From Vicinamibacterales bacterium (GTDB lineage Bacteria > Acidobacteriota > Vicinamibacteria > Vicinamibacterales > 2-12-FULL-66-21): a stretch of DNA of 64,000 nt. Positions 1,971-56,885 of this stretch are shown one piece after another. A model generated the notes under the pieces. The model saw only the letters and a list, made by a program, of their open reading frames with translations, had not been told where the DNA came from and made no database searches. The stretch spans positions 20,636 to 84,635 of the forward strand of contig DATAFJ010000027.1 of assembly GCA_036257535.1 (NCBI GenBank), written 5' to 3'. Position 1 is the first letter of the stretch. Each line of letters opens with the position of its first letter. Both the position numbers and the translations under genes were made by a program.

Positions 1971-2981
1971 TCAGCGATCACTCCGAGATCCCCAGCGGTC
2001 GATGTTATTGAGAATGGCGAGCGCCGTGCCCGAGAAGATCTGCTCTTTCTCTCGCGCGGGGATGTCGAGCTGTTCGATCGATGACACGGCCCGGTCGATC
2101 GATCCGAGCAAGTGGGGATAGTCGCTGCCCATGGCCATGTGATCGGCGCCGACGAGATCGCGCGCATGCCGGAGGTTGTACGGGCTGAACGTGACCGTGT
2201 CGTAGTAGAGCCGCTTGAGATACACGCTCGGCGGCGCGTCTATCTTCACCCTGCACTCCGCGAAGTCCCGGTACCCGCTGTCCAGCCGTTCCATCAGCCA
2301 CGGAATCGCACCGCCAAGATGGCCGATGAGCCACCGGATGTCCGGAAGCTCGCGAAACAGGCCGTCAAAGCACATGCGCGCCACCGCGAGCGTCGTGTCG
2401 AACGGAAATCCAACCAGCGGCCCGAGCACGTACTCGCCGAAGGGAGCGGAGTGGGCAGGCAGCATCGGATGCAGGAAGATGCAGAGACCCATCCGATTCG
2501 CTTCTTCGAAGAACGGCCGGTACACGGGCGACGTCAGCGCACGCCCGCGAATGTTGCTCAAGAGGACCACGCCGTTCATCCGCAGATCGTCGATGGCCCG
2601 GTGCAGCTCCAGGAGGGCCGCGTCAGGATCGTCCATGGGAATCGACGCGAAGCCTTTGAATCGACCGGGATGACGCGCGATGAGATCGGCATAGGCGTCG
2701 TTGACTTCACGCGCCACCGCCGCCTGGCGGTCCGCTTCCGCAAAAAACACGTTCGGCGTCGACAGGGAAATGACCTCGACGTCGATGCCGACGCGATCCA
2801 TGTCGGCGAGCCGCTTGTCCGGGTCGGTCATCGGCGGCGTGATGCCGAAGAACCGCGCCCCGCCGTACGTGATAATCGTGCGACCCGTCGGATCAGTGGT
2901 GAAAGAGAAATCCCGGCCGTGCTCCTTGATGCGATCGAAGAACGCGGCCGGGTAATAGTGGGTATGAAGGTCGTACTTCAA
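1971..2981 (-). CDS. Amidohydrolase family 2 (ACMSD-like metal-dependent hydrolase)
   Basis: ORF 1971..3050. KYDLHTHYYP (HxH metal site), HLGGAIPWLMERLD, MGSDYPH. The first 23 tracked codons are read out of a heptamer array, so I place the start at TTG 2981 (MKYDLHTH...). Confidence 0.85.
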   Translation of the reverse strand: MKYDLHTHYYPAAFFDRIKEHGRDFSFTTDPTGRTIITYGGARFFGITPPMTDPDKRLADMDRVGIDVEVISLSTPNVFFAEADRQAAVAREVNDAYADLIARHPGRFKGFASIPMDDPDAALLELHRAIDDLRMNGVVLLSNIRGRALTSPVYRPFFEEANRMGLCIFLHPMLPAHSAPFGEYVLGPLVGFPFDTTLAVARMCFDGLFRELPDIRWLIGHLGGAIPWLMERLDSGYRDFAECRVKIDAPPSVYLKRLYYDTVTFSPYNLRHARDLVGADHMAMGSDYPHLLGSIDRAVSSIEQLDIPAREKEQIFSGTALAILNNIDRWGSRSDR

Positions 2982-3056
2982 TGCCGAATGTCCAATGCCC
3001 GATGCCCAATGCCCAGACGGAGGCCCGAAGCCCAAGGCCCCAAGCCCCAAGCCCTA
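2979..3056 (-). repeat. Heptanucleotide tandem array, 11 units, filling a stop-to-start spacer
   Basis: Sense (minus) strand: TAGGGCT TGGGGCT TGGGGCC TTGGGCT TCGGGCC TCCGTCT GGGCATT GGGCATC GGGCATT GGACATT CGGCATT G. It runs from stop TAG (3056-3054) to the TTG start (2981-2979). Confidence 0.9.
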
Positions 3057-6000
3057 CGGCTCCGTCCCAGTCCTGAGCGCGCGCACGGGCTGCGGTACTT
3101 CCATCAGAAAGTTCGCCGCCGCGAGCTGCCTGTAGAGATCGCCCGCTTTCGAGATGACCCCGTTGACTTCTCCCACCGCCGTCGTGAGCGCTTCCCGGTT
3201 CTCCGTCACCAGCCGTGTCTGCGTCTCGGTCGGCAGAGAAGTGGAGCCCATGATCTGACTCTTGAGCTGACCGATCCGGCCGCGCACGTTCTGAGTGCCG
3301 CCGAATCCGCCGCCGAACCCGCCACCGCCGCCCACGCCGAGCTTCGGCTTGACCTTCTCGACTTCCTTGTCGAACGACTCGACGGCCGTCTTCATGTCGG
3401 CCGGCGCCTTCGTCGACTTCAGCCTGTCCTTCAGGTCGGTGAGCTGGCGATCGATCGTCGTCAGCGCGGCCGCCGCCTCGTTTGCGTGACGCTGGAGCTC
3501 GTGGAGGGCGAGGGCTGTCTCGAAGTGAACCTTGCGGTCGGCGTCGGTAATCTGAATCTCGGGATCGCCCGAGACGACAACGCGGGAGGTTGCCGCATCG
3601 CGCCCATCGACACTGAGTGCCACTGAATAGGTCCCGGGCAGCACCAGCGGACCGTTCAGCCCGCCTCCGAAAAACCCTCCACCCTGGCCCGGCTGCTGGC
3701 CCGCTAAAGGTGGCAGGGGCTCGACGCGCAGATCCCAGACGACGGTGTTGAGGCCGGCGGCGCCGGCGTTCCGTATCGCAGCGCCCGAGAGCTCGCGTAC
3801 GGTCCGGCCTGTCGCGTCCTTGACGCTCAGCTTCACGTCCTTGGCGGCTTCCCGGAGACGGAACGCAATCGACACGCCTTCGCGCGGGTTTTTCCCGAGG
3901 AACTTGCGATCGCCCTCGAAGTCGCGCATGCGCTCCGCCGATCCGTTGCGCTGCGCGACGGCCTGAGGCTCGAACAGGTAGACCGCCTCGGTCATGGCCT
4001 TCGCGTGCTGCTGGAACGGCGCAAGATCGTCGAGCACCCAGAATGCCCGGCCGTGGGTGGCGAGAATCAGGTCGTTGTCGCGCGGGTGGATGGCGATCTC
4101 GTACACCGGAACGGTGGGCAGGTTTGCTCTCACGCGGGACCACGTGCGGCCGCGATCCGTCGTGACGAACAGGCCGGTCTCGGTGCCGATGTAGAGCACG
4201 TCCGGGTTTTTCGTGTCCTCCGTGAGCGTGCGAACGACCTCGCCCTTCGGCAGGCCGCCGGCGAGCGACCGCCACGAGCCGCCATAGTCGCCACTCGCAA
4301 AAACGTACGTGCCGAAATCGCCGGATCGGTGACCGTCGAAGGTTGCGTGGACCGTTCCATCATCGAAGCGCGACGGAACGACCTTGGAGACGTAGGTGTT
4401 CTTCGGGACTCCAGGAATCTTGTCTGTCACGCGCGTCCAGTTCTTGCCGCCGTCACGCGAGACGGCCACCACGCCGTCATCCGAGCCCGTGTAGTAGAGG
4501 CCGGCGCGCTTCGTTGATTCCGCGAAGCTGACGAGCGTGCTGTACGCCGCGACGCCGTCGTTTCGCGCGAGCCGCGTCTCGCGTCCCCTGACGCCCATCA
4601 ACTCCAGCTCGTCGCGATCGACGGCGTTCGTGAGGTCGGGGCTGATCTCCTGCCACGAGTGGCCGCGGTCCGCCGACTTCAGCAGTTTGTTCGCCGCGAC
4701 GTAGACCGTTTTCGGATCGTGCGGTGACAACGCCATCGGCGTATCCCAGTTCCAGCGATACGCAGGCTGGCCCGCGACCGGCTCCGGACGGATCGACTTG
4801 CGCTCGTTGGTGAGGCGGTCCACCCGATTCATGCGGCCGTCCTGCGATTCCGAATACAGGATTCTGGGATCCATCGGATCGACCAGCGCCACGAAGCCGT
4901 CGCCGCCGCCGATGATGAACCATTCGTCGTTGCCGATGCCGTTGCGGTTGCGGACGGCGCTCGGACCGCACCATGTGTTGTTGTCCTGCAGCCCGCCGCA
5001 GATGGTGTATGGGGACTGCATGTCGTACGACACGTGATAGAACTGCGCCAGCGGCAGGTTCGGGAGATACGTGTACGTGCGGCTGCGATCGTAGGAGATC
5101 GCGACGCCGCCGTCGTTGCCCAGGATCAGATGATCGGAGTTTGCGGGATTGATCCACATCGCGTGATGGTCGACATGGATGCTGCGGGCTCCCTCGTTGT
5201 GGAACGTCTTGCCGCCGTCGTCCGAGACGTGCAGCTGCACGCCCAGCACGTAGATCCGGGCATCCGAGTTCGGGTCGACGCGAATCTGGCTGAAGTACAT
5301 CGGGCGCGGGTTCACGTTGCTCAATTTCTTCCAGCCCGCCCCGCCATCGTCTGAGCGGTACACTCCGCTCTCGGTCGCGTGCTCGATGCGGGCATAGACG
5401 ACGTTCGGATTCGATCGATAGACGTCGAGGCCGATCCGCCCCTTGGGTCCGTCAGGAATTCCCGCCGTCAGCTTCGTCCACGTTCGGCCCGCGTCGGTCG
5501 TCTTGTAGATCGCGCTGCCGTTGCCGCCGCCGTTGAAGCCCCACGTGGCGCGGCGGCGCTGGTACGTGGCCGCGTACAAGACCTTGTTGTTCGACGGATC
5601 CATGACGAGCTCCGTCGCTCCGGTGTCGTCGTCTACGAAAAGACTCCGCGTCCAGGTGAGCCCGCCGTCGATCGTCTTGAACACCCCACGTTCGCCGCCG
5701 GGCGCCCAGAGGCTGCCGAGCGACGCCACGTAGACGACGTCGTGGTCCTGCGGATCCACGATGACGCGGGCGATGTGCCGCGACTCCCGGAGCCCCATGT
5801 TCTTCCAGCCGCGTCCGCCGTCGGTCGACTTGTAGACGCCGTCGCCCCACGACGAGCTCTGGCGGTTGTTGTTCTCGCCGGTTCCCACCCACACGAGATT
5901 CGCGTCGGTCGGAGCGATCGCGACATCGCCAATCGATGACGTGGACTCGTTGTCGAAGACCGGCTCGAAGGTCGTTCCCTGGTTGACCGTCTTCCAGAGC

Positions 6001-6221
6001 CCGCCGGTCGCGGATGCCACGTAGAACACGGATGGGTTGGACTCGAGCACGGCCAGATCGTCGATGCGCCCCGACATCGTGGCGGGGCCGATCTCGCGGA
6101 ATTCCAGTCTGTCGAATGGGCCATCGGCTTTGCTGGGCTCGGCGGACCGGTCGGGCGTCTGGCTGGTGAGCGGCGACGAGAGAATCAACGCGAGCGCAGC
6201 AGTGAGGACTCCACGCGTCAC
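3054..6221 (-). CDS. Secreted BNR/Asp-box repeat protein (sortilin/VPS10-like beta-propeller, glycosyl-hydrolase-like)
   Basis: ORF 3054..6536. Repeated S/T-x-D-x-G-x-T/S-W turns: STDGGRGWKN, TIDGGLTWT, TTDAGRTWT, SDDGGAGWKK, SDDGGKTFHN, SADRGHSWQE, SRDGGKNWTR, TTDRGRTWSR. Signal-like VTRGVLTAALALILSSPLTSQ begins at GTG 6221 preceded by AAGGGGG. The 105 upstream tracked codons look non-coding. Confidence 0.85.
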   Translation of the reverse strand: MTRGVLTAALALILSSPLTSQTPDRSAEPSKADGPFDRLEFREIGPATMSGRIDDLAVLESNPSVFYVASATGGLWKTVNQGTTFEPVFDNESTSSIGDVAIAPTDANLVWVGTGENNNRQSSSWGDGVYKSTDGGRGWKNMGLRESRHIARVIVDPQDHDVVYVASLGSLWAPGGERGVFKTIDGGLTWTRSLFVDDDTGATELVMDPSNNKVLYAATYQRRRATWGFNGGGNGSAIYKTTDAGRTWTKLTAGIPDGPKGRIGLDVYRSNPNVVYARIEHATESGVYRSDDGGAGWKKLSNVNPRPMYFSQIRVDPNSDARIYVLGVQLHVSDDGGKTFHNEGARSIHVDHHAMWINPANSDHLILGNDGGVAISYDRSRTYTYLPNLPLAQFYHVSYDMQSPYTICGGLQDNNTWCGPSAVRNRNGIGNDEWFIIGGGDGFVALVDPMDPRILYSESQDGRMNRVDRLTNERKSIRPEPVAGQPAYRWNWDTPMALSPHDPKTVYVAANKLLKSADRGHSWQEISPDLTNAVDRDELELMGVRGRETRLARNDGVAAYSTLVSFAESTKRAGLYYTGSDDGVVAVSRDGGKNWTRVTDKIPGVPKNTYVSKVVPSRFDDGTVHATFDGHRSGDFGTYVFASGDYGGSWRSLAGGLPKGEVVRTLTEDTKNPDVLYIGTETGLFVTTDRGRTWSRVRANLPTVPVYEIAIHPRDNDLILATHGRAFWVLDDLAPFQQHAKAMTEAVYLFEPQAVAQRNGSAERMRDFEGDRKFLGKNPREGVSIAFRLREAAKDVKLSVKDATGRTVRELSGAAIRNAGAAGLNTVVWDLRVEPLPPLAGQQPGQGGGFFGGGLNGPLVLPGTYSVALSVDGRDAATSRVVVSGDPEIQITDADRKVHFETALALHELQRHANEAAAALTTIDRQLTDLKDRLKSTKAPADMKTAVESFDKEVEKVKPKLGVGGGGGFGGGFGGTQNVRGRIGQLKSQIMGSTSLPTETQTRLVTENREALTTAVGEVNGVISKAGDLYRQLAAANFLMEVPQPVRALRTGTEP

Positions 6222-6420
6222 GGTACCCCCTTTGCTAACGAACAGCCGACCGGCGCGGCGCAGTCCATGGCCGGGCTTCGGCAAGGCGGCGAGAATATCA
6301 CGCCGCTCGCTCCGTCGGCCGCCCTTTGGTGGTAGGGTGGTGCCGGACTTTTGCACCCCGTTTGCGGACCGGTCGCCGAGTCGTCGTGCTGCCGGGGCAG
6401 GATGCAGCGCGGAGGTCCAG

Positions 6421-11799: not shown

Positions 11800-11886
11800 C
11801 ATGCTGACTGCTGACTGCGGAATGCTGAACGGGGAAGCAGCATCCAGCTCCACACTCAGCAATCCACATTCAGCAGTCAGCAGGGT
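11800..11886. repeat. Palindromic heptamer array (GAATGCT/GATTGCT family)
   Basis: Period-7 parse: ACTGCTG ACTGCGG AATGCTG AACGGGG AAGCAGC ATCCAGC TCCACAC TCAGCAA TCCACAT TCAGCAG TCAGCAG. The left arm (about 11802-11833) is an imperfect reverse complement of the right arm (about 11852-11884), starting with a 13-nt exact match TGCTGACTGCTGA. Confidence 0.8.
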
Positions 11887-15199: not shown

Positions 15200-15556
15200 A
15201 TGTGGACCAAGATGATGGGGGGCCCCCGCAAGAAAGCGCCGAAAACGATCGCGGTGATCGATCCGGACTTGTGCTTCGGGGCGTTCGCGTGCTCGATTTG
15301 TCAGGCGGCGTGTCCCGTGGCAGACTGCATCACCGAGGTCCCGGACCGCGACGGCAGAATGGTCTGCGCCGTGCGCGCCGATCTCTGCATCGGCTGCGGG
15401 CTCTGCGTCACCCTGGGAAATCCGACCGCGCCGCAGCCGCGCGACTTCGGCTGTCCGCCCGACTACGACGCGATCAACATGGTTCCGTTCGAGCAGGTCG
15501 CGAAGCTGGTCGCGGCGGAAGGGGAGACGCAGCCAGCGGAGCAGCCGTCAGCCTGA
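15200..15556 (+). CDS. 4Fe-4S dicluster ferredoxin-like protein
   Basis: Frame of ORF 15071..15556, ATG 15200. Cys clusters CSICQAACP and CIGCGLC. Confidence 0.7.
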   Translation: MWTKMMGGPRKKAPKTIAVIDPDLCFGAFACSICQAACPVADCITEVPDRDGRMVCAVRADLCIGCGLCVTLGNPTAPQPRDFGCPPDYDAINMVPFEQVAKLVAAEGETQPAEQPSA

Positions 15557-16459
15557 TCGGGCGCCGTACCGCGCGCGCCTGGCGGCCTGGTAGTAGCGCG
15601 ACGGCAGCGCGTGCCCGATTTTTTCTTCGATGAAGCTCGACGCCTCGACCAGCGCGTCGAGATCGACGCCGGTTTCGACGCCCAATCCATTCAGCATGTA
15701 GACGACATCCTCGGTTGCGACATTTCCTGTCGCGCCGGGAGCGTAGGGACATCCGCCGAGCCCGCCAGCCGACGAGTCGAACGTGCGCACGTCTCTGTCG
15801 AGCGCGACGAAGATATTAGCGAGCGCCGTGCCGCGGGTATCGTGAAAGTGCAGGGCGATTCGCTCGAGCCCCAGCGCGGGGATGAGCGCCGCAAGCGCCT
15901 CGCGTACCTGCCCGGGGTGGGCGACGCCGATCGTGTCGCTGACAGCGACTTCGAACGCCCCCATTTTCAAAAGACGCTCCGAAACGAAAATCACGCGCTC
16001 GAGCGGCACGTGTCCCTCGAACGGGCATCCGAAGGCGGTCGAGACATATCCCCGCACCCGGAGGCCGGCGTCCGTTGCGCGGCGCGCGACCTCGGCGTAC
16101 ACGGCGAGCGAATCGTCGATCGACTGGTTGATGTTCCGTCGGCTGAACGTCTCCGACGCCGCGGCAAAGATCGCGATCTCGGCTACGCCTGCGGCAATGG
16201 CGCGCTCGAGTCCGGCCGTGTTCGGCACGAGCGCCGTGTAGCGGATCCCGGGCCGTCGCGTGATCGCTGCGAAGACGTCCGCCGCGTCCGCCATCTGCGG
16301 AACCCACTTCGGGCTGACGAATGCAGACACTTCGATGACGGGCAGGCCGGCGGCGGAGAGCCGGTCGACGAAGGTAGCCTTGTCGGCCGTCCCCACGATG
16401 GCGGACTCGTTCTGCAGCCCGTCCCTGGGGCCGACCTCGACGATCGCAACGCGGGTCAC
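15548..16459 (-). CDS. hmgL: Hydroxymethylglutaryl-CoA lyase
   Basis: VAIVEVGPRDGLQNE, HFHDTRGTALAN, GLGGCPYAPGATGNVATED. GTG 16459 overlaps the upstream stop (GTGA). The tracked 403-aa ORF is extended across the BCCP gene. Confidence 0.9.
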   Translation of the reverse strand: MTRVAIVEVGPRDGLQNESAIVGTADKATFVDRLSAAGLPVIEVSAFVSPKWVPQMADAADVFAAITRRPGIRYTALVPNTAGLERAIAAGVAEIAIFAAASETFSRRNINQSIDDSLAVYAEVARRATDAGLRVRGYVSTAFGCPFEGHVPLERVIFVSERLLKMGAFEVAVSDTIGVAHPGQVREALAALIPALGLERIALHFHDTRGTALANIFVALDRDVRTFDSSAGGLGGCPYAPGATGNVATEDVVYMLNGLGVETGVDLDALVEASSFIEEKIGHALPSRYYQAARRARYGARSG

Positions 16460-16863
16460 GTCATCTCCACCAGGATCGATCCGGGCTGCACGAGCTGCCC
16501 TTCGGCGCAGCGTACTTCGGTCACTGTTCCATCCTGCGGCGCGCGAAGCGGCAGCTCCATCTTCATCGCTTCGAGAAGGATCAGCGTTTCCCCGCGGCGA
16601 ACCGTCTTCCCGGGCGCCGTGAGAATCCGGAGCACGGTGGCCGGCATCGGCGCCGACAGGTCGGTCAGCCCGCGTGAACCCCCGCGAACCTTCTCGAACC
16701 CCTTCGAACCTTTTCGAACCTTTTCGAACCTGAAGGTACGTCCATCGATGAAAACCCACGTTGCGTGCTCATCAGCGGCAACGAACGCACGGACGCGGTT
16801 CCCGTCTCGTTCCAGCAGGAGCTCGCCTGGCGCGATATCGGTAATGGTGAACTCGGCGGACAT
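16456..16863 (-). CDS. mccA: Biotin carboxyl carrier (biotinyl domain) subunit, C-terminal part of a split MccA
   Basis: Biotinylation motif EAMKME within GETLILLEAMKMELPLRAPQDGTV. The N-terminal half continues the BT domain. ATG 16863 overlaps the stop of the biotin carboxylase ORF (TGATG). Confidence 0.8.
   Translation of the reverse strand: MSAEFTITDIAPGELLLERDGNRVRAFVAADEHATWVFIDGRTFRFEKVRKGSKGFEKVRGGSRGLTDLSAPMPATVLRILTAPGKTVRRGETLILLEAMKMELPLRAPQDGTVTEVRCAEGQLVQPGSILVEMT
16671..16730. repeat. Six 10-bp units each ending CGAACC/TGAACC, inside the BCCP linker coding region
   Basis: cgcgtgaacc cccgcgaacc ttctcgaacc ccttcgaacc ttttcgaacc ttttcgaacc. On the sense strand this encodes FEKVRKGSKG FEKVRGGSRG. 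Confidence 0.85.
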
Positions 16864-18344: not shown

Positions 18345-18397
18345 GCCAGGCCCCAAGCCCTAAGCCCTAAGCCCCAAGCCCCAAGCCCCAAGCCCTA
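18345..18397 (-). repeat. Heptamer array (CTTGGGG/CTTAGGG), 6-7 units, filling the liuC-mccA spacer
   Basis: Sense (minus) strand: TAGGG CTTGGGG CTTGGGG CTTGGGG CTTAGGG CTTAGGG CTTGGGG CCTGGC GTG. It runs from stop TAG (18397-18395) to start GTG (18344-18342). Confidence 0.92.
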
Positions 18398-20769: not shown

Positions 20770-21005
20770 TACCAGCCGCAGCAGTCGGTCTTGAAGCCGC
20801 AGCGCGGGCAGCGCCACACGGCGTGCATCCGGAACATCGCGCCGCCGCACCGGTCGCAGCCGACTTCGCTCGCGCTCTGCGCGGGCCTCGTCGAGACCGG
20901 GGCATGGGGCTTGGGGCTCCGGGCTTGGGGCGTCGGGCTCAGAGCTTGGGGCATCGGGCGCAGGGCCTGGGGCTTGGGGCTTGGGGGCATCGGCCGTTCA
21001 GGCAT
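20769..21005 (-). CDS. Small Cys4 zinc-ribbon protein translationally coupled to mccB (start uncertain)
   Basis: The C-terminus ...[31 protein letters not shown] carries CxxC-X12-CxxC. Stop TAA overlaps the mccB ATG (TAATG). ATG 21005 lies 6 nt after a TATAAT. The N-terminal ~45 codons are read from the heptamer array, so the coding status of that part is unclear. Confidence 0.45.
20899..20996 (+). repeat. Degenerate GGGGCTT heptamer array, ~14 units
   Basis: Plus strand: GGGGCAT GGGGCTT GGGGCTC CGGGCTT GGGGCGT CGGGCTC AGAGCTT GGGGCAT CGGGCGC AGGGCCT GGGGCTT GGGGCTT GGGGGCA TCGGCCG. Confidence 0.88.
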
Positions 21006-26256: not shown

Positions 26257-26292
26257 ACGGATTACACGGATTACACGGAACACACGGAAACA
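26257..26292. repeat. Four tandem 9-mers (ACGGATTAC x2, ACGGAACAC, ACGGAAACA) in the ECF sigma promoter region
   Basis: acggattac acggattac acggaacac acggaaaca. The last two units contain GGAAC/GGAAAC, which resemble an ECF -35 element; TCTAAT lies 19 nt downstream of GGAAAC. Confidence 0.8.
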
Positions 26293-32940: not shown

Positions 32941-35070
32941 ATGCCGAACCGGCTCGCCAGCGAGCGCAGCCCCTACCTCCTTCAGCACGCGCAAAACCCG
33001 GTCGACTGGTATCCATGGGGTGAAGAGGCGTTCGAGAAGGCGCGACGCGACGACAAGCCGATTTTTCTATCGGTCGGTTACTCGACGTGCCACTGGTGCC
33101 ACGTCATGGAGCACGAGTCGTTCGAGTCCGCAGACATCGCCGAACGGCTCAACCGGGACTTCGTGTCGATCAAGGTCGACCGCGAGGAGCGTCCGGATGT
33201 AGATCGCGTGTACATGACGTTCGTGCAGGCCACCACGGGCGCCGGCGGCTGGCCGATGAGCGTCTGGCTGACACCGTCGCTCAAGCCCTTCTACGGCGGC
33301 ACGTACTATCCGCCCACGTCGAGGTGGGGGCGTCCGGGGTTCAGCGATGTGCTGGATGAGCTCGCGCGCGTCTGGAAGGGCGATCGCGCGCGCGTCGATA
33401 CTGTAGCCGACGATCTGCTCGCGCGGATTCAGGAGGCGACCGCTAAGAGCGGCGTCAGAACGGCGAGCGAAGTGGCCGGCCCGGACGCGATTCCCGCAGG
33501 CGTGGAGCAGTTCAGGCGCGCTTTCGACACACGGTATGGCGGATTCGGAGACGCGCCGAAGTTCCCACGGCCGTCGGAGCTGCTGTTTCTGTTGAGGGCC
33601 GGCGCCACCGAGATGGCGCTCGAGACGTTGCGGGCGATGGCGCTCGGCGGCATGCGTGACCACGTGGGCGGCGGCTTTCATCGCTACTCGGTCGACGCCG
33701 CCTGGCGCGTACCGCACTTCGAAAAGATGCTGTACGACCAGGCGCAGCTCGTGCTCGCGTATCTCGAAGCGTCACAGGCGAGTCGCACAGCTGGAGGCGC
33801 CGAAGGAAGCGCGGGCTTCTACGCGACGGTCGCCGAAGACACGCTCGACTACGTGCTCCGTGATCTGACCGACGACGCCGGCGGCTTTTACTCCGCTGAG
33901 GATGCCGATAGCGTGCCGCCGGAGCTCAGTGCGCAGGGACCGGGCGCCCCCAAGTCCGAAGGCGCGTTCTATCTCTGGACCGATGATGAGATCGGCGCGC
34001 TGCTCGGTGACGCCGCCGACATCGTACGCAAGCGGTTCGGCATCCAGAAGGGCGGAAACGCGCCTCACGACCCGCAGGGCGAGTTCACCGGCAAGAACAT
34101 CCTCTACGTCGATCAACCGATTGAAGACATCGCCATCAGGACCGGTAAGACGGCGGATGAAGTGATGAACGTTCTCGTTCGTACGCGCCCGGTGCTCTTC
34201 AACGCACGCGAGGAGCGCCCGCGGCCGCACCTCGACGACAAGATCCTGACGGCCTGGAACGGGCTGATGATTGCCGCGATCGCCCGTGCGGCGCGGACGT
34301 TCGGCAACGATCGCTATCTCAATGCGGCGCGGACGGCAGCGCGTTTCATACGGGCTTTGCTCTGGCAGGCAGAAACGGGCGGCACGCACGGGCGGCTGCT
34401 GCGACGCTTTCGCGCCGGTGAAGCGGCCATCGAAGGCTACTGCGAGGACTACGCCTGCCTGGTCTGGGGGCTCCTCGAGCTCTTTCAGGCGGATGGCGAT
34501 CCCGACTGGCTCGAGTGGGCGATTGCCGTCCAGAACGCACAGGACGCGCTGTTCTGGGACGACGCGGATGCCGGCTGGTTTACAACGTCGGGCCGCGACC
34601 CGTCGGTCCTGCTTCGGCTCAAGGAGGAGCACGACGGCGCCGAGCCGTCGCCCGGATCGATCTCGACGCTGAATCTCATCGTACTCTCGCACCTCACCGG
34701 CCGCGGCGAGCTCGCCGATCGCGCCGGGCGAACGCTGGCGCGCTATGGGCGGCGGTTCGGCGAGGCGGCGCGCGCGCTGCCGTTCATGCTCGCCGCGCTT
34801 GCCACGTGGCACGCCGGCTTCGAGCAGATCGTGATCGTCGGACAGCCGGATGCGCCTGACACGAAGGCGATGCATGAGGCTGTTGCACATCAGTACCGTC
34901 CCTATGCCGTCGTCATTCCCGTGGAGCCCGGCAGCCGCCAGGAGTCGCTCGCCCGGTTGATACCGGCGATCGGCGCGATGACGCTCCGCGACGGCCGCGC
35001 CACAGTGTACGTGTGCCGCAACTTCACGTGTGACGAGCCTGTTACTGATCCCGCTCGTCTCAGGCGTTAG
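32941..35070 (+). CDS. Thioredoxin-domain protein of the YyaL/DUF255 (SSP411-like) family
   Basis: [52 protein letters not shown], then a long alpha/alpha-barrel-like C-terminal region. 709 aa. Confidence 0.9.
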
Positions 35071-35093
35071 GCATTCGGCATTAGGCATTACAG
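35067..35093 (+). repeat. GGCATTN heptamer array filling a stop-to-start spacer
   Basis: TTAGGCA TTCGGCA TTAGGCA TTACAG then ATG. The stop TAG 35068-35070 is inside unit 1, and the next ATG is at 35094. Confidence 0.85.
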
Positions 35094-43133: not shown

Positions 43134-43184
43134 TTTCTCCTAGCGTCCGGCCGCAGCCGGGCCTATAATGCGCGCTCTTCCAGC

Positions 43185-46130
43185 ATGCGCGCAGCGGTCG
43201 GAGCTCTCGTTTCGCTGCTCGTCGTCGTGTGTCCTGCCGACGCCCAGTACTTCGGCCGGAACAAGGTCGAGTACGACCACTTCGACTTCCGCGTCGCACG
43301 CACCACGCACTTCGACATCTACTTCGCTGAAAAGGACGCCGCCGCCGCGGCCGACGCAGCCGTCCTCGCGGAGCGTTGGCACGATCGCCTCGTTGGGGCG
43401 TTCGGCCACCGCCTGACGCGGCGTCAACCGCTGGTCCTCTACGGCAGTCATCCCGAGTTCGCGCAGACGAACATCGTCGGCGGGTTCGTCGGCGAGGGCA
43501 CGGGCGGTGTCACCGAAGGTCTGCGCCGCCGGATCGTCATGCCGTTCGGGTACAGCCTCGCGGAAACGGATCACGTGCTCGGACATGAGATCGTTCACGC
43601 GTTCCAGTACGACATGGCGTCGACCTACGGCTCGTCCATGTTCGTGCCGCTCTGGTTCGCGGAAGGCATGGCCGAGTATCTGTCGGTCGGCCCTACGGCG
43701 CCGCAGACGACGTTGCTGATGCGCGACGCGGTGGCCTCGGGCAGGCTGCCGTCGATCGAGTCGCTCGATCATGGACGAATCTCGCCGTACCGAAGCGGCC
43801 ACGCGTTCTGGACGTGGATTGCTGAGCGGTTTGGCGGGGCAGTGATCGCGGATGTGCTGCGGCAGAAGGGACGGGCCAGCGCGCTCCGGCGGCTTGAGAA
43901 CTCGACCGGACTGAAGCGCGAGGCCCTCGACCGCGAGTGGCACGAATGGTTGAAGGAAGAGTTCCCCGCAGAGAGCGCGCACGACGTCGCACCGGGCGGC
44001 GTTCACGAGACATTCCAACCGGTCGTCACGCGCCGCAATGGTGGACGTGTGAACGTCGCGCCGGCGCTGAGCCCGAACGGCCGCCGCCTCGTGTTTCTCT
44101 CCGAGCGCGACAGATTGTCAGTCGACCTGTTTCTCGCCGACGCCGCGACCGGCAGGATTCTCCGAAAACTGCTGACGACGGCGGCGCGACCGGAGATCGA
44201 GAGCCTGCAGTCGCTGCGATCCGCTGGAGCGTGGTCGGCAGACGGACGCCGGTTCGCCTTTGCCGTCATCAGGAATGGCCGCCCCGCGCTCACGATCTTT
44301 GACGTGGGCGATGACGACCGGTCCAGGGTGGCCCGGCGCATCGACCTGGCGTCGCTCGGCGAGATCGCCGGGCCGACCTGGTCGCCCGACAGCGCCTCGA
44401 TTGCGTTCACCGGGCTTGCGGACGGCGTCACCGACTTGTACATCTACGAGCTCGGCGCGGATCGCCTGCGCCGTCTGACAACCGACGCTCATGCCGATCT
44501 GCATCCGTCGTGGTCGCCCGACGGGGCGCGGCTCGCGTTTGCCACCGATCGCTTCACGAGCGATCGCGCGACCCTGAGCGCCGGCCGGCTCGAGCTGGCG
44601 ATACTGGACATCGCGGCCGGGACTCTGAGCCGCGTGCCGGGTGACGGCGCGTCGAATCGGTACTCACCGAACTGGATGCCGGATGGCCGGACGATCGTGT
44701 TTGCGACCGACAGGAACGCGGGTCAGATCGGTCGCCTCGATCTCGCATCCAATGAGATACGGATCGTCGGAGAGCTTCCAGGCTCGGTCTCTGGACTGAC
44801 GCTGGAGAGTCCGTCGGTTGCCGTCGCCCGCGACGCCGGAGCGATTGCCGTGAGCGTCTATCGTCGCGGCGCGTTCGAGATCCACGTCGCCGGCGAATGC
44901 ACGTCCTCGACGTCAGAGCCACTGCCGACCGACGAGCCCTCGCAGTCGCCGGCACCCAATGCACCCAATGCACCCAATGCACTGGAAGCATCAGCCTACC
45001 GTCCTCGCCTGCAACTGGACGGCATCGTGCAGCCGTATCTTGCGACCGGCGGGAGCTCGTTCGGCAGCTTCGTACGGGGAGGTGCCTCGCTTTCGTTCGG
45101 CGACCTGCTCGGTGGCGAGCGCCTCGGTATCGCGGTGCAGGCGGGAACGCGCCGTTCCGACCTCGCGCTGCAGCTTCAATATCTGAATCGCGACTCGCGC
45201 TGGAACTGGGGCGTCGTCACCGAAGTCGTGCCGTATGCGCGCGGACGCTCGAGGGCGCTGGACGTCGAAGACGGGTCAGTGGTCGTGCGCGAGTCCGCGC
45301 GTGAGCTGCAGTTTCACACCCGGCTGGCTGGATTGCTCTCGTACCCGTTCAGCCGCAGCCGGCGGGTCGAGTTCAGCGCGGGGATTCGGCACATCCTCTA
45401 CGAGGAGCAACTCCGGCGGCGTGAGTACTCGGCGGCGACGGGACGGCTCGTGGGCGAGCTCAACGAGAGCAGCCGCGGCGCCGAACCGGCGGGGTTCTTC
45501 GAAGGGTCCGTCGCGTTGGTGTCGGACCGCGCGATGTACGGCCCCGTCGGTCCGATAGCGGGCGAGCGGTGGCGAGTCGAAGCTTCACCGGCCGCGGGAG
45601 AGCTTCAGTTCACGGGCGTTCTCGCCGACTACCGGCGGTACCTGATGCCCGTCAAGCCCTACACAATCGCCGCGCGGGTGATGCATTCCGCGCGGTACGG
45701 CCGCGACGCCGACGACCCGCGGCTCGTGCCGCTCTTCGCCGGCTACCGTCACCTGATTCGCGGCTACGACGCGGGCGCCTTCGGCGGCTGCGATCGGCTT
45801 GGCGACTGCGATCGCTTCGACGCGCTCTTCGGCAGCCGTCTGATGGTGGGGAACGTCGAGCTGCGCGTTCCCATCGCCGGCGCGATCGCGCGCGAGCTGA
45901 GATACGGTCCCATCCCCGCGGAAGCGTTCGCGTTTTTCGACGCCGGCATAGCCTGGACGAGCGAGGACATCCCGGCGTTTGCCGGCGGCACTCGCCGGCT
46001 CATGCGCAGCGCCGGTGCGGGCGTCCGCGTCAACGCTTTTGGGATGATCGTGGAAGTCGGCGCGGCGCGTCCGTTCGATCGCGCCCGCAACGGCTGGAAC
46101 GTCGTCTTTAATCTCCGCCCCAGCTTCTGA
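43185..46130 (+). CDS. Fusion protein: HExxH peptidase-like N-domain + TolB-type (PD40) beta-propeller + C-terminal Omp85/D15-like beta-barrel
   Basis: Signal ...LLVVVCPADAQ. VLGHEIVHAFQYDM. Five PD40-like blades (SPNGRRLVFLSERD, WSADGRRFAF, WSPDSASIAFTG, WSPDGARLAFATDR, WMPDGRTIVFATDR). C-terminus FFDAGIAW...GAGVRVNAFGMIVEVGAARPFD...NVVFNLRPSF ends in an aromatic residue, typical of outer-membrane barrels. Confidence 0.8.
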   Translation: MRAAVGALVSLLVVVCPADAQYFGRNKVEYDHFDFRVARTTHFDIYFAEKDAAAAADAAVLAERWHDRLVGAFGHRLTRRQPLVLYGSHPEFAQTNIVGGFVGEGTGGVTEGLRRRIVMPFGYSLAETDHVLGHEIVHAFQYDMASTYGSSMFVPLWFAEGMAEYLSVGPTAPQTTLLMRDAVASGRLPSIESLDHGRISPYRSGHAFWTWIAERFGGAVIADVLRQKGRASALRRLENSTGLKREALDREWHEWLKEEFPAESAHDVAPGGVHETFQPVVTRRNGGRVNVAPALSPNGRRLVFLSERDRLSVDLFLADAATGRILRKLLTTAARPEIESLQSLRSAGAWSADGRRFAFAVIRNGRPALTIFDVGDDDRSRVARRIDLASLGEIAGPTWSPDSASIAFTGLADGVTDLYIYELGADRLRRLTTDAHADLHPSWSPDGARLAFATDRFTSDRATLSAGRLELAILDIAAGTLSRVPGDGASNRYSPNWMPDGRTIVFATDRNAGQIGRLDLASNEIRIVGELPGSVSGLTLESPSVAVARDAGAIAVSVYRRGAFEIHVAGECTSSTSEPLPTDEPSQSPAPNAPNAPNALEASAYRPRLQLDGIVQPYLATGGSSFGSFVRGGASLSFGDLLGGERLGIAVQAGTRRSDLALQLQYLNRDSRWNWGVVTEVVPYARGRSRALDVEDGSVVVRESARELQFHTRLAGLLSYPFSRSRRVEFSAGIRHILYEEQLRRREYSAATGRLVGELNESSRGAEPAGFFEGSVALVSDRAMYGPVGPIAGERWRVEASPAAGELQFTGVLADYRRYLMPVKPYTIAARVMHSARYGRDADDPRLVPLFAGYRHLIRGYDAGAFGGCDRLGDCDRFDALFGSRLMVGNVELRVPIAGAIARELRYGPIPAEAFAFFDAGIAWTSEDIPAFAGGTRRLMRSAGAGVRVNAFGMIVEVGAARPFDRARNGWNVVFNLRPSF
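44952..44982 (+). repeat. In-frame 9-mer tandem (GCACCCAAT x3.4) encoding (APN)3 in a linker
   Basis: gcacccaat gcacccaat gcacccaat gcac lies within the fusion-protein CDS. It shares the CCAATGC core with the heptamers at 2979-3013. Confidence 0.85.
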
Positions 46131-46598: not shown

Positions 46599-46771
46599 GA
46601 TGTCCCGCAGAGCAAGCCGGACGCCGGATCCCGCCCGCACCGTAAGCTGCATCTGGCCAAGCATATAGATGTTCCTCTTGACGCCAATGGCGGCGTCGCG
46701 TTGTGCAGAATCGGGACGGGCGCACGGTTCTGTAAGGGCCGACCACGCTATAATCCTGATCAATCTCTCCA

Positions 46772-47215
46772 ATGCTGTTCACGTGGTGGCAGTGGCTCGC
46801 GCTCGGGCTTGTCCTGGTTCTGCTCGAGATGGCGGCTTCGGGCGGCTTCTACGTGATCTTTTTTGGCATCGCGGCGCTGACGATCGGCGCGCTGCACCTC
46901 CTGAATCTCGCGGGGCCCGTTTGGCTTCAGCTCCTTATGTTCTCGGTCCTCTCCGTCGGATCGCTGCTGCTCTTCCGCAATCCAATGATTCGCTGGCTGA
47001 AGCTCGATCAGGGCTCGCCCGACGTGGACACGCTGGCGGGCGAGATTGCGCTGCCGCTCGAGGACATCGGACCGGGGGAAGTGGGGCGGGTCGAGCTGCG
47101 TGGCACGATCTGGCAGGCCCGCAACGCCACGGCTGCTCCGATCGTTCGCGGGCGCCGCGCCGTCGTTCGACGCGTCGATCGGCTGATGCTCTTCATAGAG
47201 CCTGAAGGAGTGTAA
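46772..47215 (+). CDS. nfeD: NfeD-family membrane protein
   Basis: Two or three N-terminal TM helices plus a C-terminal OB-like domain (GEVGRVELRGTIWQARN). It lies immediately upstream of an SPFH gene, the canonical pairing. Confidence 0.85.
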   Translation: MLFTWWQWLALGLVLVLLEMAASGGFYVIFFGIAALTIGALHLLNLAGPVWLQLLMFSVLSVGSLLLFRNPMIRWLKLDQGSPDVDTLAGEIALPLEDIGPGEVGRVELRGTIWQARNATAAPIVRGRRAVVRRVDRLMLFIEPEGV

Positions 47216-48141: not shown

Positions 48142-48180
48142 GTCAGTGAGGAATGCTGATTGCTGAATGTTGAATGATCG
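48142..48180 (+). repeat. GAATGCT/GATTGCT heptamer element directly after the SPFH stop (left arm of the IVS-gene flank)
   Basis: After TAG 48139-48141: GTCAGTG AG GAATGCT GATTGCT GAATGTT GAATGAT CG. Confidence 0.85.
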
Positions 48181-48321
48181 CGTGGTGCCGGAGCAATCAA
48201 GGTGGTTGCAGATACTGCTATTTCTACCCGGGCTAGTCGTTGAAATCTTTGGCACTCCGAAGGAACAACCGAGCGGTTTCCCCCACAAATCGCGCGGCAT
48301 GCCCGCTGCAACGCCCCTGGC

Positions 48322-48717: not shown

Positions 48718-48801
48718 TTGCGGGAAGCTGAATGCTGATTGTTAGTGACCGGCGTTGCTTGACCACTCAGCATTCCACACTCAGCAATCTACACTGACTC
48801 A
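48715..48801. repeat. Heptamer elements downstream of the IVS-like gene (direct partial copy plus inverted right arm)
   Basis: 48727-48745 gctGAATGCTGATTGttag repeats 12 nt of the left arm. 48766-48789 CTCAGCATTCCACACTCAGCAATC is the reverse complement of the left arm 48158-48180 (18 of the first 21 positions match by hand). The minus strand after the ypfJ-like TGA (48801-48799) reads GTCAGTGTAGATTGCTGAGTGTGGAATGCTGAG. Confidence 0.85.
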
Positions 48802-51320: not shown

Positions 51321-51851
51321 ATGCGCGCCCGGAGGCCCGTAGCGGCGGGATTTACGCTCGTCGAACTCCTCGTTGTCGTGGCAATGATCGGCGTCGTGTC
51401 GGCCATTGCGGTTCCGGCACTGCTCCGTGCCCGGATGTCCGGCAACGAGGCTTCGGCGATCGGATCGATTCGTGCGGTCAACGCGGCGGAGACGGCGTAT
51501 GCGAACTCGGCGGGGCGGGGTGGCTTCGCGGTTCTGCTCTCTACGCTCGTCACGCCGTGCGGTGCCGGGAGCGCCGGCTTCCTGTCGAGGGACCTCGCCT
51601 CCGATCCGTCAAGCAAAAGCGGTTACCGAATCACGCTCGCGGTCGGCGCGGGTGCGAACGTCGGACCGCTCGATTGCAATGGTACGGTGACGCGCACCTC
51701 CTATTACGCGACAGCGGTTCCGCTGTCGGTCGGCACGACGGGAAGGCGTGCGTTCGCGAGCAACGCCATCAACGCAATCTGGCAGAACTCCACCGGATTG
51801 CCACCGGCGGAGCCGTTCACAATCACAGCGACGACGCAGCCACTTCAATAG
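51321..51851 (+). CDS. Prepilin-type N-terminal cleavage/methylation domain protein (type IV pilin / T2SS pseudopilin-like)
   Basis: MRARRPVAAG|FTLVELLVVVAMIGVVSAIAVPALL is a class III signal with the G/FTLVE motif. ATG 51321 (tracked ATG 51303 adds 6 aa). Confidence 0.85.
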   Translation: MRARRPVAAGFTLVELLVVVAMIGVVSAIAVPALLRARMSGNEASAIGSIRAVNAAETAYANSAGRGGFAVLLSTLVTPCGAGSAGFLSRDLASDPSSKSGYRITLAVGAGANVGPLDCNGTVTRTSYYATAVPLSVGTTGRRAFASNAINAIWQNSTGLPPAEPFTITATTQPLQ

Positions 51852-51892
51852 CCCCAGGCCCCAAGCCCCAAGCCCCAGGCCCCAGGCCCAGT
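51852..51892 (-). repeat. Heptamer array (CCTGGGG/CTTGGGG) occupying the whole gap between two convergent stops
   Basis: Plus strand: TAG CCCCAGG CCCCAAG CCCCAAG CCCCAGG CCCCAGG CCCAGT TCA. The minus strand after TGA reads ACTGGG CCTGGGG CCTGGGG CTTGGGG CTTGGGG CCTGGGG. Confidence 0.92.
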
Positions 51893-56856: not shown

Positions 56857-56885
56857 GAGGCCCTTTGCCCAGGCCCCAGCCCCTA
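56857..56885 (-). repeat. Short G-rich heptamer array after the M24 stop
   Basis: Minus strand: TAGGGGC TGGGGCC TGGGCAA AGGGCCT. TAG = 56885-56883. Confidence 0.75.

What the first reader, a model, noticed from the sequence alone, without database searches (positions are those of the whole stretch)
2979..3056. A 78-nt stop-to-start spacer made entirely of 11 heptanucleotide units, with two repeat sub-families grading into each other
On the sense (minus) strand the gap between the BNR-protein stop and the amidohydrolase start reads TAGGGCT TGGGGCT TGGGGCC TTGGGCT TCGGGCC TCCGTCT GGGCATT GGGCATC GGGCATT GGACATT CGGCATT G. The TAG stop is the first three bases of unit 1. The probable TTG start is formed by the last two bases of unit 11 plus the next G. 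The GGGGCTT-type units seen at four other loci change here into the GGGCATT/GGCATTN-type seen at 35067-35093, which suggests one evolving family (GGGCNTT). The ORF caller reads the array as a 23-aa N-terminal extension (MGLGALGFGPPSGHWASGIGHSA), which I consider an artefact.
Basis: seen in the sequence. Interest (0 to 1): 0.6.

Follow-up and report, generated by a model that had tools for sequence, protein, structure and literature searches.

The report
Variable heptamer microsatellite filling gene spacer
The gap between two genes of a soil Acidobacteriota bacterium consists entirely of a 7-base repeat whose copy number differs between natural strains; this is a known kind of bacterial microsatellite seen in a new lineage, not a new mechanism.

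Summary
The repeat is real. Window 2979-3056 (minus strand) runs from the TAG stop of a BNR/sortilin-like gene to the TTG start of an Amidohydro_2 gene, and all of it is period-7 repeat DNA.

It is not 11 units in one phase. It is two five-unit blocks, GGGCTTG-type and GGGCATT-type, joined by a 5-nt linker that breaks the phase.

The window holds 7 strong period-7 arrays against 0.06 expected, and all are intergenic.

The same organism (99.8-99.98% identity) occurs in several JGI metagenome assemblies. One assembly has one extra GGGGCTT unit at this junction. Another lacks one unit in the array at 51851-51889. The arrays therefore behave as slippage-prone microsatellites.

Related species (88-92% protein identity) have neither the array nor this gene junction.

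Homologues, Pfam and the JGI gene calls all place the start at the TTG, so the 23-aa "extension" is an ORF-caller artefact.

The first block could form a G-quadruplex and the second could not. No function is shown.

The closest known relatives are the G-rich heptameric repeats of Xanthomonas and Nostoc, and long simple sequence repeats in general. Verdict: a new member of a known kind, of moderate to low interest.

The parts
3054..6356 (-). Upstream gene: BNR/sortilin-Vps10-like protein (1100 aa with the JGI start). Its TAG stop at 3056-3054 is the first three bases of the repeat tract.
   Evidence: Pfam Sortilin-Vps10, BNR and PSII_BNR. JGI gene calls L166 16865-20167, L167 and L168. Homologues match to the last residue (L083 and L084, query 1-948).
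3020..3054 (-). Block A: five G-rich heptamers GGGCTTG GGGCTTG GGGCCTT GGGCTTC GGGCCTC. It has five G3-4 tracts, which makes a canonical quadruplex-type motif. This is the polymorphic part.
   Evidence: TRF 3023-3054. Register analysis. G4Hunter maximum 1.76 and a PQS at 3024-3048. L168 carries one extra GGGGCTT here.
3015..3019 (-). 5-nt linker CGTCT that breaks the heptamer phase between the two blocks.
   Evidence: The GGGC anchors shift by 12 rather than 7 between positions 34 and 46. TRF splits the tract here.
2980..3014 (-). Block B: five heptamers GGGCATT GGGCATC GGGCATT GGACATT CGGCATT. It has only three G3 tracts and is degenerate towards the start codon.
   Evidence: TRF 2979-3015. 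Pattern search. G4Hunter below 1.5.
2979..2981 (-). TTG start codon of the amidohydrolase, formed by the last two bases of block B plus G.
   Evidence: Homologue alignment starts. Pfam profile start. JGI calls of 336 aa. It is the only TTG start among 59 called genes.
1971..2981 (-). Downstream gene: Amidohydro_2 family protein (ACMSD-like), 336 aa.
   Evidence: Pfam PF04909, E=1.2e-36, residues 3-324. JGI names close homologues aminocarboxymuconate-semialdehyde decarboxylase.
18345..18397 (-). Sister array (GGGCTTG/GGGCTTA, about 7 units). It fills the whole spacer between the TAG stop of an enoyl-CoA hydratase (18397-18395) and the GTG start of a biotin carboxylase (18344-18342), inside a methylcrotonyl-CoA-carboxylase-type operon.
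   Evidence: TRF. Pfam on the flanking genes. JGI calls L166 4825/4876. A/G SNP inside the array at 18368.
20899..20986 (+). Sister array (GGGGCTT-type, about 12 degenerate units) between divergent genes. It lies 48 nt from the carboxyltransferase start (20850, minus strand) and 196 nt from the sigma-54 activator start (21183, plus strand).
   Evidence: TRF. Pfam. JGI calls. Length is identical in 5 assemblies.
35062..35093 (+). Sister array (AGGCGTT AGGCATT CGGCATT AGGCATT ACAG). It contains the TAG stop (35068-35070) of a DsbH/DUF255 gene and ends at the ATG (35094) of an enoyl-CoA hydratase gene.
   Evidence: TRF. Pfam. JGI calls L171 9434/9458.
51849..51889 (-). Sister array (GGGGCYT, about 5.6 units) between convergent genes. 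It overlaps the TAG stop of the plus-strand pilin-like gene (51849-51851) and starts 3 nt after the TGA of the minus-strand DUF4097 gene. It is polymorphic.
   Evidence: TRF. Pfam. L175 lacks one TTGGGGC unit, while L174, L176 and L177 equal the window. ViennaRNA with quadruplexes allowed puts a G4 in the MFE, z=-4.9.
56867..56885 (-). Nascent 2.5-unit array TAG GGGCTGG GGCCTGG GC that begins at a TAG stop.
   Evidence: G4Hunter and PQS hit. Sequence.

Best explanation
The tract is a non-coding, slippage-prone heptanucleotide microsatellite. It consists of two adjacent five-unit arrays of related G-rich units and occupies the whole 72-nt spacer between the BNR gene's TAG stop and the amidohydrolase's TTG start.

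Shown:
- It is a true tandem array.
- It gains or loses whole units in natural populations, within its perfect-repeat part.
- It is one of about ten such arrays in 64 kb, and all are intergenic.
- It lies in a gene junction that close relatives do not have.
- The coding sequences on both sides are intact up to its edges.

Inferred:
- The arrays arise and turn over by replication slippage. Period 7 is the favoured unit length in this phylum, as was reported for large high-G+C genomes.
- They expand until they meet selected sequence (the stop and start codons), so they end up filling short spacers completely.
- The stop codon is itself a variant unit (TAGGGCT against TGGGGCT).
- The tract is probably transcribed as part of a BNR-amidohydrolase bicistronic mRNA, because no promoter-like or terminator-like site is detected in it.
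- Any effect on the downstream gene would come through spacer length or G-rich RNA/DNA structure, not through a specific encoded signal.

I consider it mostly tolerated filler DNA, with at most a modulatory role.
For: Tandem structure and significance.

Unit-number polymorphism among independent assemblies of the same organism at 99.8-99.98% identity:
- L168 has +1 GGGGCTT at this junction, while L166 and L167 equal the window.
- L175 has -1 unit at 51851-51889.
- Whole-unit indels, together with a 9-mer coding repeat, make up 3 of the 6 indel sites seen in about 100 kb of comparisons; the other three are 1-2 nt indels outside arrays.

Not conserved between species:
- L001-L003 (88-92% aa identity) have the amidohydrolase overlapping a response-regulator gene (ATGA overlap) and no array.
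- L178 (91%) has the same HTH_20/AHSA1 neighbours but no BNR gene and no array.

Location: all period-7 arrays lie in the 6.7% of the region that is intergenic.

Phylum-wide pattern: 102 of 222 tandem arrays in 2.15 Mb of mostly Acidobacteriota contigs have period 7, with lineage-specific units.

No promoter-like or terminator-like site lies in the spacer and there is no Rfam match.

Literature: heptamers are the commonest long SSR class and a slippage explanation has been proposed (Mrazek 2007, as summarised in PMC4679880 and PMC4692102).
Against: Neutrality is not demonstrated.
- The G-rich strand is the sense strand in all three within-operon spacers of this window (2979-3056, 18345-18397, 35062-93). 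All five G-rich arrays sit next to the ORF on the 5' side of the G-rich strand, the positional rule Rehm et al. reported. That hints at selection on orientation.
- All array-overlapped stop codons are TAG (5 of 5 against 37% genome usage).
- Arrays at 18346, 20899, 11802-75 and 35062 show no length variation in 3-5 assemblies, so instability is modest.
- The copy-number differences come from short-read assemblies, not from reads.
- Co-transcription and slippage are inferred, not measured.
Confidence: 0.7

Rival explanations
1. G-quadruplex regulatory element. Block A (and the sister GGGGCTT arrays) would fold into an RNA G4 in the intercistronic mRNA, or a DNA G4 on the non-template strand, and modulate translation initiation, mRNA stability or transcription of the downstream gene. 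Unit number would tune the effect.
For: - Block A has five G3-4 tracts with 3-4 nt loops, a canonical PQS at 3024-3048 and G4Hunter 1.76.
- The four GGGGCTT-type arrays are among the strongest G4-prone segments of the window.
- The 51851 array is predicted to fold as a G4.
- The position matches the G4-forming GGGNATC repeats of Xanthomonas and Nostoc: between aligned ORFs and overlapping the stop on the coding strand (PMC4692102).
Against: - Block B has only three G3 tracts and G4Hunter below 1.5.
- The spacer-filling array at 35062-93 (AGGCATT) has no G3 tract at all.
- Most heptamer arrays in other Acidobacteriota are A/T-rich (ATTGAAA, TCTGAAA and others), so G4 potential is not what the arrays share.
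- ViennaRNA with quadruplexes allowed puts no G4 in the MFE of this spacer, and its folding energy is ordinary (z=-0.2 to -0.8).
- Rehm et al. themselves could not show a regulatory role.
Confidence: 0.15
2. Orientation-selected transcription insulator. A G-rich, C-poor sense RNA in an untranslated operon spacer would avoid Rho loading and so prevent polarity. The complementary (AAGCCCC)n RNA would be a strong rut-like site that stops antisense or convergent transcription.
For: - The G-rich strand is the sense strand in 3 of 3 within-operon spacers.
- At the convergent pair (51851) the plus-strand gene's 3' end carries the C-rich version.
- No intrinsic terminator is detected.

The logic rests on general knowledge of Rho preferring C-rich, G-poor unstructured RNA.
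Against: - With only 3-5 arrays, the orientation result has p of about 0.1.
- A wider test on other loci used a crude ORF map and is confounded by palindromic array pairs.
- No transcript data are available.
- Whether this organism encodes Rho was not examined.
Confidence: 0.08
3. Contingency (phase-variable) locus. Unit gain or loss would switch or grade expression of the amidohydrolase as a bet-hedging device.
For: Unit number does vary in the population at this junction and at 51851.
Against: - The array lies between a stop and a start, so a +/-7 nt change alters neither reading frame. The upstream TTG codons stay in frame.
- No promoter hexamers flank it.
- Associated genes are ordinary metabolic genes (amidohydrolase, methylcrotonyl-CoA carboxylase operon, enoyl-CoA hydratase), not surface or host-interaction genes. 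Rehm et al. used the same argument.
Confidence: 0.05
4. The array encodes a real 23-aa N-terminal extension of the amidohydrolase (start at TTG 3050), or it is an assembly artefact.
For: The frame is open from 3050 and the ORF lister reports a 359-aa ORF.
Against: - Homologues, Pfam and the JGI gene calls start at the TTG/ATG/GTG of MKYDLHTH.
- The extension is a low-complexity translation of repeat DNA that relatives lack.
- The array is identical in three independent assemblies besides the window and differs by exactly one unit in a fourth sequence. This excludes a one-off assembly artefact.
Confidence: 0.02

Closest known systems
G-rich, quadruplex-forming heptameric repeats GGGAATC / GGGGA(C/T)T of Xanthomonas and Nostoc (Rehm et al. 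2015, PLoS One, PMC4692102)
   Same: - 7-nt units with one G3-4 tract each.
- Strongly intergenic and preferentially between co-oriented ORFs.
[quoted passage not shown]
- Unit number and sequence vary between close relatives.
- Associated with ordinary metabolic genes.
- Function unknown.
   Different: - The unit sequences differ (GGGGCTT, GGGCATT, AGGCATT).
- The host is a Vicinamibacterales-like Acidobacteriota.
- Here two unit types are juxtaposed and fill the stop-to-start spacer completely.
- Several arrays of the same genome (GGCATT, GCTGAAT types) have no G4 potential.
- No biophysical data exist.
Long simple sequence repeats (LSSR) of prokaryotes, heptanucleotide class (Mrazek, Guo & Shah 2007, PNAS; read only through PMC4679880 and PMC4692102)
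   Same: - Tandem units of 5-11 nt, with 7 the commonest.
- Enriched in large, high-G+C, non-pathogen genomes.
- Units that are not a multiple of 3 are confined to non-coding DNA.
- Slippage is the proposed origin.
   Different: The summaries I read list Burkholderia, cyanobacteria, actinobacteria and Xanthomonas as rich in such repeats. They do not name Acidobacteriota, and I could not read the paper itself.
Cyanobacterial STRR heptanucleotide repeats and TAACTGA intergenic repeats of Beggiatoaceae, Cyanobacteria and Bacteroidetes (MacGregor 2015, PMC4679880)
   Same: - Short arrays (2-40 copies) of one heptamer in intergenic regions, often immediately upstream of start codons.
- Weak or absent Shine-Dalgarno sequences.
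- Function unknown, possibly post-transcriptional.
   Different: - Those systems use one dominant unit shared across distant taxa, which suggested horizontal spread or a common binding protein.
- Here there are several related units within one genome and different units in each Acidobacteriota lineage.

Membership tests
Bacterial simple sequence repeat / long SSR (microsatellite) | Head-to-tail copies of a 1-11 nt unit, longer than chance allows | tested here: met
   TRF finds period-7 arrays at 2979-3015 and 3023-3054. The lag-7 match is 0.70, reached by 0 of 10,000 shuffles. The window has 7 arrays against 0.06 expected.
Bacterial simple sequence repeat / long SSR (microsatellite) | Copy-number polymorphism by whole units between closely related genomes | tested here: met
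   L168 has +1 GGGGCTT at this junction. L175 has -1 unit at 51851-89. All assemblies are 99.8-99.98% identical to the window.
Bacterial simple sequence repeat / long SSR (microsatellite) | Units that are not a multiple of 3 are confined to non-coding DNA | tested here: met
   All period-7 arrays of the window lie between JGI-called genes, and only 6.7% of the region is intergenic. The 9-mer and 30-nt repeats are the ones found inside genes.
G4-forming heptameric repeats of the Rehm et al. type | Unit consensus GGGNATC / GGGGA(C/T)T | tested here: not met
   The units here are GGGCTTG/GGGGCTT and GGGCATT. One foreign locus (L107, AGGGATC) does carry the Rehm-type unit.
G4-forming heptameric repeats of the Rehm et al. 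type | At least four consecutive G3+ tracts, so that a quadruplex can form | tested here: inconclusive
   Block A has five tracts, a PQS and G4Hunter 1.76. Block B has three tracts and scores below 1.5. The ViennaRNA MFE with quadruplexes allowed contains no G4 for this spacer.
G4-forming heptameric repeats of the Rehm et al. type | Intergenic, between aligned ORFs, within 50 bp of or overlapping the stop on the coding strand | tested here: met
   The TAG stop is the first three bases of the array. Both flanking genes are on the minus strand, and the G-rich strand is the sense strand.
G4-forming heptameric repeats of the Rehm et al. type | K+-dependent quadruplex formation of the repeat oligonucleotide in vitro | not testable with these tools
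   Needs CD or UV melting.
Phase-variable contingency locus | The repeat lies inside an ORF or between promoter elements, so that unit changes switch expression on or off | tested here: not met
   The array lies between a stop and a start. The +7 allele leaves both ORFs intact. No promoter-like hexamers were found. The neighbouring genes are metabolic.
Intrinsic terminator / REP- or MITE-like palindromic element | Inverted repeat forming a stable hairpin (plus a U-tract for a terminator) | tested here: not met
   No terminator-like site lies in 2979-3056. The folding energy is not better than shuffles, z=-0.2. By contrast, the inverted heptamer arrays at 11802-11875 do form a hairpin, z=-6.8.
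Protein-coding N-terminal extension | Conserved in homologues and supported by gene models | tested here: not met
   Homology starts at MK[YLIF]DLHTH in 80 loci. Pfam starts at residue 3. JGI aa.

The most novel reading that the evidence does not exclude
Heptamer arrays may be a phylum-wide, functional class of intergenic elements in Acidobacteriota rather than junk.
- Direct G-rich arrays would act as orientation-dependent intercistronic insulators or tuners, through G4 formation or by avoiding Rho loading on the sense RNA. Their complement would stop antisense transcription.
- Palindromic heptamer arrays with mirrored unit variants would serve as long-hairpin terminators placed right after stop codons.
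- Unit gain and loss would give populations a graded expression dial.
Probability: 0.12. Interest if true: 0.6.

Novelty: new member of a known kind. Interest (0 to 1): 0.33.

Why it matters
- Annotation: ORF callers read through these stop-free G-rich arrays and create false N-terminal extensions. Here that gives 359 aa against 336 aa, and the same happens at 18356.
- Assembly: short-read contigs tend to break at the arrays. L173 starts inside the 35062 array, and the contig of P0001 starts 85 nt upstream of its amidohydrolase gene.
- Strain tracking: the arrays are natural variable-number markers for uncultured soil Acidobacteriota.
- Biology: about a tenth of the intergenic DNA in this window is heptamer repeat. 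The arrays follow the same positional habits as the unexplained G-rich heptamers of Xanthomonas and Nostoc. A third, unrelated phylum showing the same pattern strengthens the case that a general replication- or transcription-linked mechanism is still to be explained.

Tried and rejected
- Exact look-ups of the amidohydrolase (359, 336 aa) and of the PHP protein found nothing. The cause was single-residue strain differences (G/T at 2604). Look-ups through the sigma-54 activator, SDF, ECH and DUF4097 proteins worked.
- The metagenome-contig scan with the BNR protein found only relatives of <=70% identity, so no orthologous junction. The HTH_20 look-up returned only two 1-kb Logan contigs. P0001 (95% identity) had no DNA available.
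- I first thought the +7 allele would frameshift the putative N-terminal extension. Translation showed it does not, because the insertion lies upstream of the in-frame TTG codons. I dropped that argument.
- Quadruplex folding is not in the MFE for this spacer. There is no Rfam family and no promoter or terminator consensus.
- A test of the rule 'arrays lie closer to the 5' neighbour of the G-rich strand' on other loci gave 29 against 6. It rests on a crude ORF map and is geometrically confounded by palindromic array pairs, so I do not rely on it. My first strict period scan and the GC3 gene finder were too stringent and were replaced.
- Shine-Dalgarno substitution by the array is not needed as an explanation. 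Only 15 of 59 genes in this organism have a canonical SD core.
- Literature searches found no description of heptamer arrays in Acidobacteriota. Mrazek 2007 itself is not held in the library.
Full report
**1. What is there**

On the minus strand, window 3056-2979 reads TAGGGCTTGGGGCTTGGGGCCTTGGGCTTCGGGCCTCCGTCTGGGCATTGGGCATCGGGCATTGGACATTCGGCATTG.

- TAG (3056-3054) ends a BNR/sortilin-Vps10-like gene. Pfam supports this, and the JGI gene calls give 1100 aa, which puts the gene at window 3054-6356.
- The final TTG (2981-2979) starts an Amidohydro_2 gene at 1971-2981 (PF04909, E=1e-36).
- TRF finds two period-7 arrays, 2979-3015 and 3023-3054.
- The lag-7 self-match of the 78 nt is 0.70, and no shuffle out of 10,000 reaches it.

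**2. Correction to the description**

Anchoring on the GGGC core gives C positions 6, 13, 20, 27, 34 and then 46, 53, 60, 67, 74. The tract is therefore:

- TA
- five units: GGGCTTG GGGCTTG GGGCCTT GGGCTTC GGGCCTC
- a 5-nt linker, CGTCT
- five units: GGGCATT GGGCATC GGGCATT GGACATT CGGCATT
- G

This is two juxtaposed arrays in different phase, not 11 in-phase units.

In the GGGC register the two unit types differ at one position (GGGCCTT against GGGCATT). At consensus level they differ at two positions (GGGGCTT against GGGCATT), which about 23% of unrelated heptamer pairs also reach. Within this window 9 of 45 unit-type pairs differ by <=1, against about 4% for units from different genomes. 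A common origin of the unit types is plausible but not proven.

**3. It is one of many**

With score >=40 and >=3 copies, the window has 7 period-7 arrays against 0.06 expected from 3rd-order Markov simulations.

| Type | Positions |
|---|---|
| GGGGCTT-type | 18346-18395, 20899-20986, 51851-51889; mini-array 56867-56885 |
| GGCATT-type | 35062-35093 |
| GCTGAAT/TGTGGAW-type | 11802-11875, 48151-48176, 48711-48795 |

Using the JGI gene calls for the same organism, every array is intergenic, although only 6.7% of the region is intergenic.

Three arrays fill a stop-to-start spacer completely:

- This one.
- 18345-18397: ECH TAG stop to biotin carboxylase GTG at 18344, inside a methylcrotonyl-CoA-carboxylase-type operon.
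- 35062-35093: DsbH-like TAG stop to ECH ATG.

In each of these the G-rich strand is the sense strand.

All five stop codons overlapped by G-rich arrays are TAG, against 37% TAG usage (22 of 59 genes). The stop looks like a variant unit (TAGGGCT against TGGGGCT, or TTAGGCA repeated).

**4. Where the window comes from, and the population test**

The amidohydrolase places the window in Acidobacteriota. The best genome hits are an uncultured Acidobacteriota MAG (92%) and a Vicinamibacterales MAG (88%).

Exact-protein look-ups found the same organism, at 99.8-99.98% nucleotide identity, in independent JGI metagenome assemblies.

| Array | Same length as window | Different |
|---|---|---|
| 2979-3056 (this junction) | L166, L167 | L168: one additional GGGGCTT in the perfect part of block A |
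| 51851-51889 | L174, L176, L177 | L175: one TTGGGGC unit missing |
| 18346, 20899, 11802-75, 35062 | 3-5 assemblies each | none; one A/G SNP inside the 18346 array |

Apart from three 1-2 nt indels, the only other indel is copy-number change of an in-frame 9-mer repeat at 44952-44982.

Whole-unit gain and loss is the signature of slipped-strand mispairing. One caveat applies: these are short-read assemblies, not read counts.

**5. Not conserved between species**

- In L001-L003 (88-92% aa identity) the amidohydrolase ATG overlaps the stop of a response-regulator gene, and there is no array.
- In L178 (91%) the neighbours HTH_20 and AHSA1 are the same as in the window, but the BNR gene is absent. 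The amidohydrolase (GTG AGA TAC GAC...) sits behind a divergent intergenic region with no tandem repeat.

The BNR-amidohydrolase junction is therefore lineage-specific, and the array occupies a young junction.

BNR orthologues at about 65% identity in other contigs (L083, L084, L156) are also followed within 6-54 nt by heptamer arrays. Their units are unrelated, and in L083 and L084 they come as inverted pairs. This points to repeated independent colonisation of such positions.

**6. A phylum-wide habit**

In 2.15 Mb of mostly Acidobacteriota contigs, 102 of 222 tandem arrays have period 7. The next most common periods are 9 (37 arrays) and 8 (26). Units are lineage-specific: ATTGAAA, TCTGAAA, AGTTTAA, CAGGGAT and others.

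Many arrays come as inverted pairs that fold into near-perfect 30-45 bp hairpins directly after stop codons, with z-scores of -6 to -11 and unit variants mirrored in the two arms.

**7. Start codon and the 'extension'**

- All 80 genome loci begin their similarity at residue 1-2 (MK[YLIF]DLHTH), and relatives have ATG or GTG at that codon.
- The Pfam profile starts at residue 3.
- JGI aa in three assemblies.

The 23-aa MGLGALGF... peptide is the translation of stop-free repeat DNA. The +7 allele does not frameshift it, so that argument is not used.

The amidohydrolase has the only TTG start among 59 called genes. Only 15 of 59 genes have a canonical SD core, so the lack of an SD here is unremarkable.

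**8. Structure and signals**

- No promoter-like or terminator-like site lies in the spacer and there is no Rfam family.
- The RNA folding energy is ordinary (z=-0.2 to -0.8). With quadruplexes allowed, the MFE of this spacer contains no G4.
- Block A is nevertheless a canonical quadruplex motif: five G3-4 tracts and G4Hunter 1.76. Block B is not: three tracts and a score below 1.5.
- The 51851 array is predicted to form a G4 (z=-4.9).
- The AGGCATT array, and most arrays in other Acidobacteriota, have no G4 potential. A quadruplex therefore cannot be the common denominator.

**9. Mechanism**

Shown: this is a non-coding tandem heptamer array that changes by whole units in nature, is species-specific, and is bounded exactly by the stop and start codons.

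Inferred:
- It arises by replication slippage, which favours 7-nt units. That preference was reported for large high-G+C genomes (Mrazek 2007).
- It expands until it meets selected sequence.
- It is co-transcribed with both genes.
- At most it modulates downstream expression through spacer length or G-rich structure.

Rivals are a G4 regulator, a Rho/antisense insulator, a contingency switch, a coding extension and an assembly artefact. They are listed with their evidence in the Rival explanations section. The orientation and positional regularities keep the first two alive at low probability.

**10. Comparison with what is known**

The closest match is the G-rich heptameric repeats of Xanthomonas and Nostoc (PMC4692102). 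The similarities are the unit length, one G-tract per unit, the intergenic location between aligned ORFs, overlap with the stop on the coding strand, closeness to the 5' neighbour, variation between close relatives, association with metabolic genes, and unknown function.

The unit consensus that defines that family is not met here. This array is therefore a new member of the broader kind (heptanucleotide long SSRs, G-rich subclass), not a member of that particular family. STRR and TAACTGA repeats (PMC4679880) are analogous.

I found no paper describing such arrays in Acidobacteriota.

**11. Verdict**

Its nature as a polymorphic heptanucleotide microsatellite is settled as far as sequence data allow. 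It is a new lineage and new units for a known phenomenon. Its practical value is for annotation, assembly and strain typing. Its biological interest is modest unless the orientation rule proves to be functional.

Noticed in passing
window 44952-44982 (inside the ORF 43185-46130, plus strand): An in-frame 9-mer repeat (GCACCCAAT) varies in copy number between assemblies. The window has 3.4 copies and a 981-aa protein. L171 and L174 have +5 units (996 aa). L175 has +8 units (1005 aa). This is a coding variable-number repeat in a large protein with no Pfam hit.
   Followed up: partly
window 11802-11875 (between the SDF transporter stop at 11939 and the PHP gene start at 11703, minus strand): Two heptamer/14-mer arrays in inverted orientation (TGCTGAATGTGGAT... 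and ...TCAGCAGTCAGCA) fold into a long hairpin of -69 kcal/mol, z=-6.8. It may be a terminator or processing site. A 1-nt indel at 11740 nearby is polymorphic.
   Followed up: partly
L005 1661-1755; L014 11036-11163; L012 4429-4507; L083 8134-8224; also L007, L018, L067, L101: In other Acidobacteriota, heptamer arrays occur as palindromic pairs right after stop codons. They form near-perfect 30-45 bp hairpins (z -6 to -11). Variant units are mirrored in both arms, so each pair evolves as a palindrome rather than as two independent arrays. L005 and L014 share almost the same variant pattern at the orthologous site.
   Followed up: partly
window 48142-48798: The spacer between convergent genes holds a 23S_rRNA_IVP-family gene (48322-48717, plus strand). 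That gene is frameshifted by a 1-nt indel at 48428 in L174. It is flanked by GAATGCT-type heptamer arrays at 48151-48176 and 48711-48745, the latter containing its TGA stop. An inverted array follows at 48764-48795.
   Followed up: partly
L173 start (window 35064); contig of P0001 (sample 3300067032): Short-read contigs end inside or just beside heptamer arrays. L173 begins within the 35062 array. The 95%-identical amidohydrolase contig begins 85 nt upstream of its gene. This suggests the arrays break assemblies.
   Followed up: no
upstream of several genes, e.g. L174 13879-14322, L174 14964-17954 and L166 7664-8020 (window about 46771-47214, 43139-46129 and 15200-15556): TATAAT-like hexamers lie 7-12 nt upstream of ATG starts, and only 15 of 59 genes have a canonical Shine-Dalgarno core. 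The organism may use many leaderless or SD-independent mRNAs.
   Followed up: no
window 16676-16731 (inside the biotin-lipoyl carrier gene 16456-16863, minus strand): A period-10/20 DNA repeat lies inside a coding region. It encodes a duplicated 10-aa segment, FEKVRKGSKG/FEKVRGGSRG. No length variation was seen between assemblies.
   Followed up: no
window 5833-5841 and 58029-58124: Strain differences form dense clusters: 5 SNPs within 9 nt in the BNR gene, shared by L166-L168, and 21 SNPs within about 100 nt in L176. They look like short recombination or gene-conversion tracts rather than point mutation.
   Followed up: no
window 26257-26288: A period-9 array (ACGGATTAC x3.6) lies in the divergent intergenic region upstream of an ECF sigma-factor gene. 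A similar CACGGA-rich repeat lies upstream of the amidohydrolase in the Vicinamibacterales genome locus L073.
   Followed up: no
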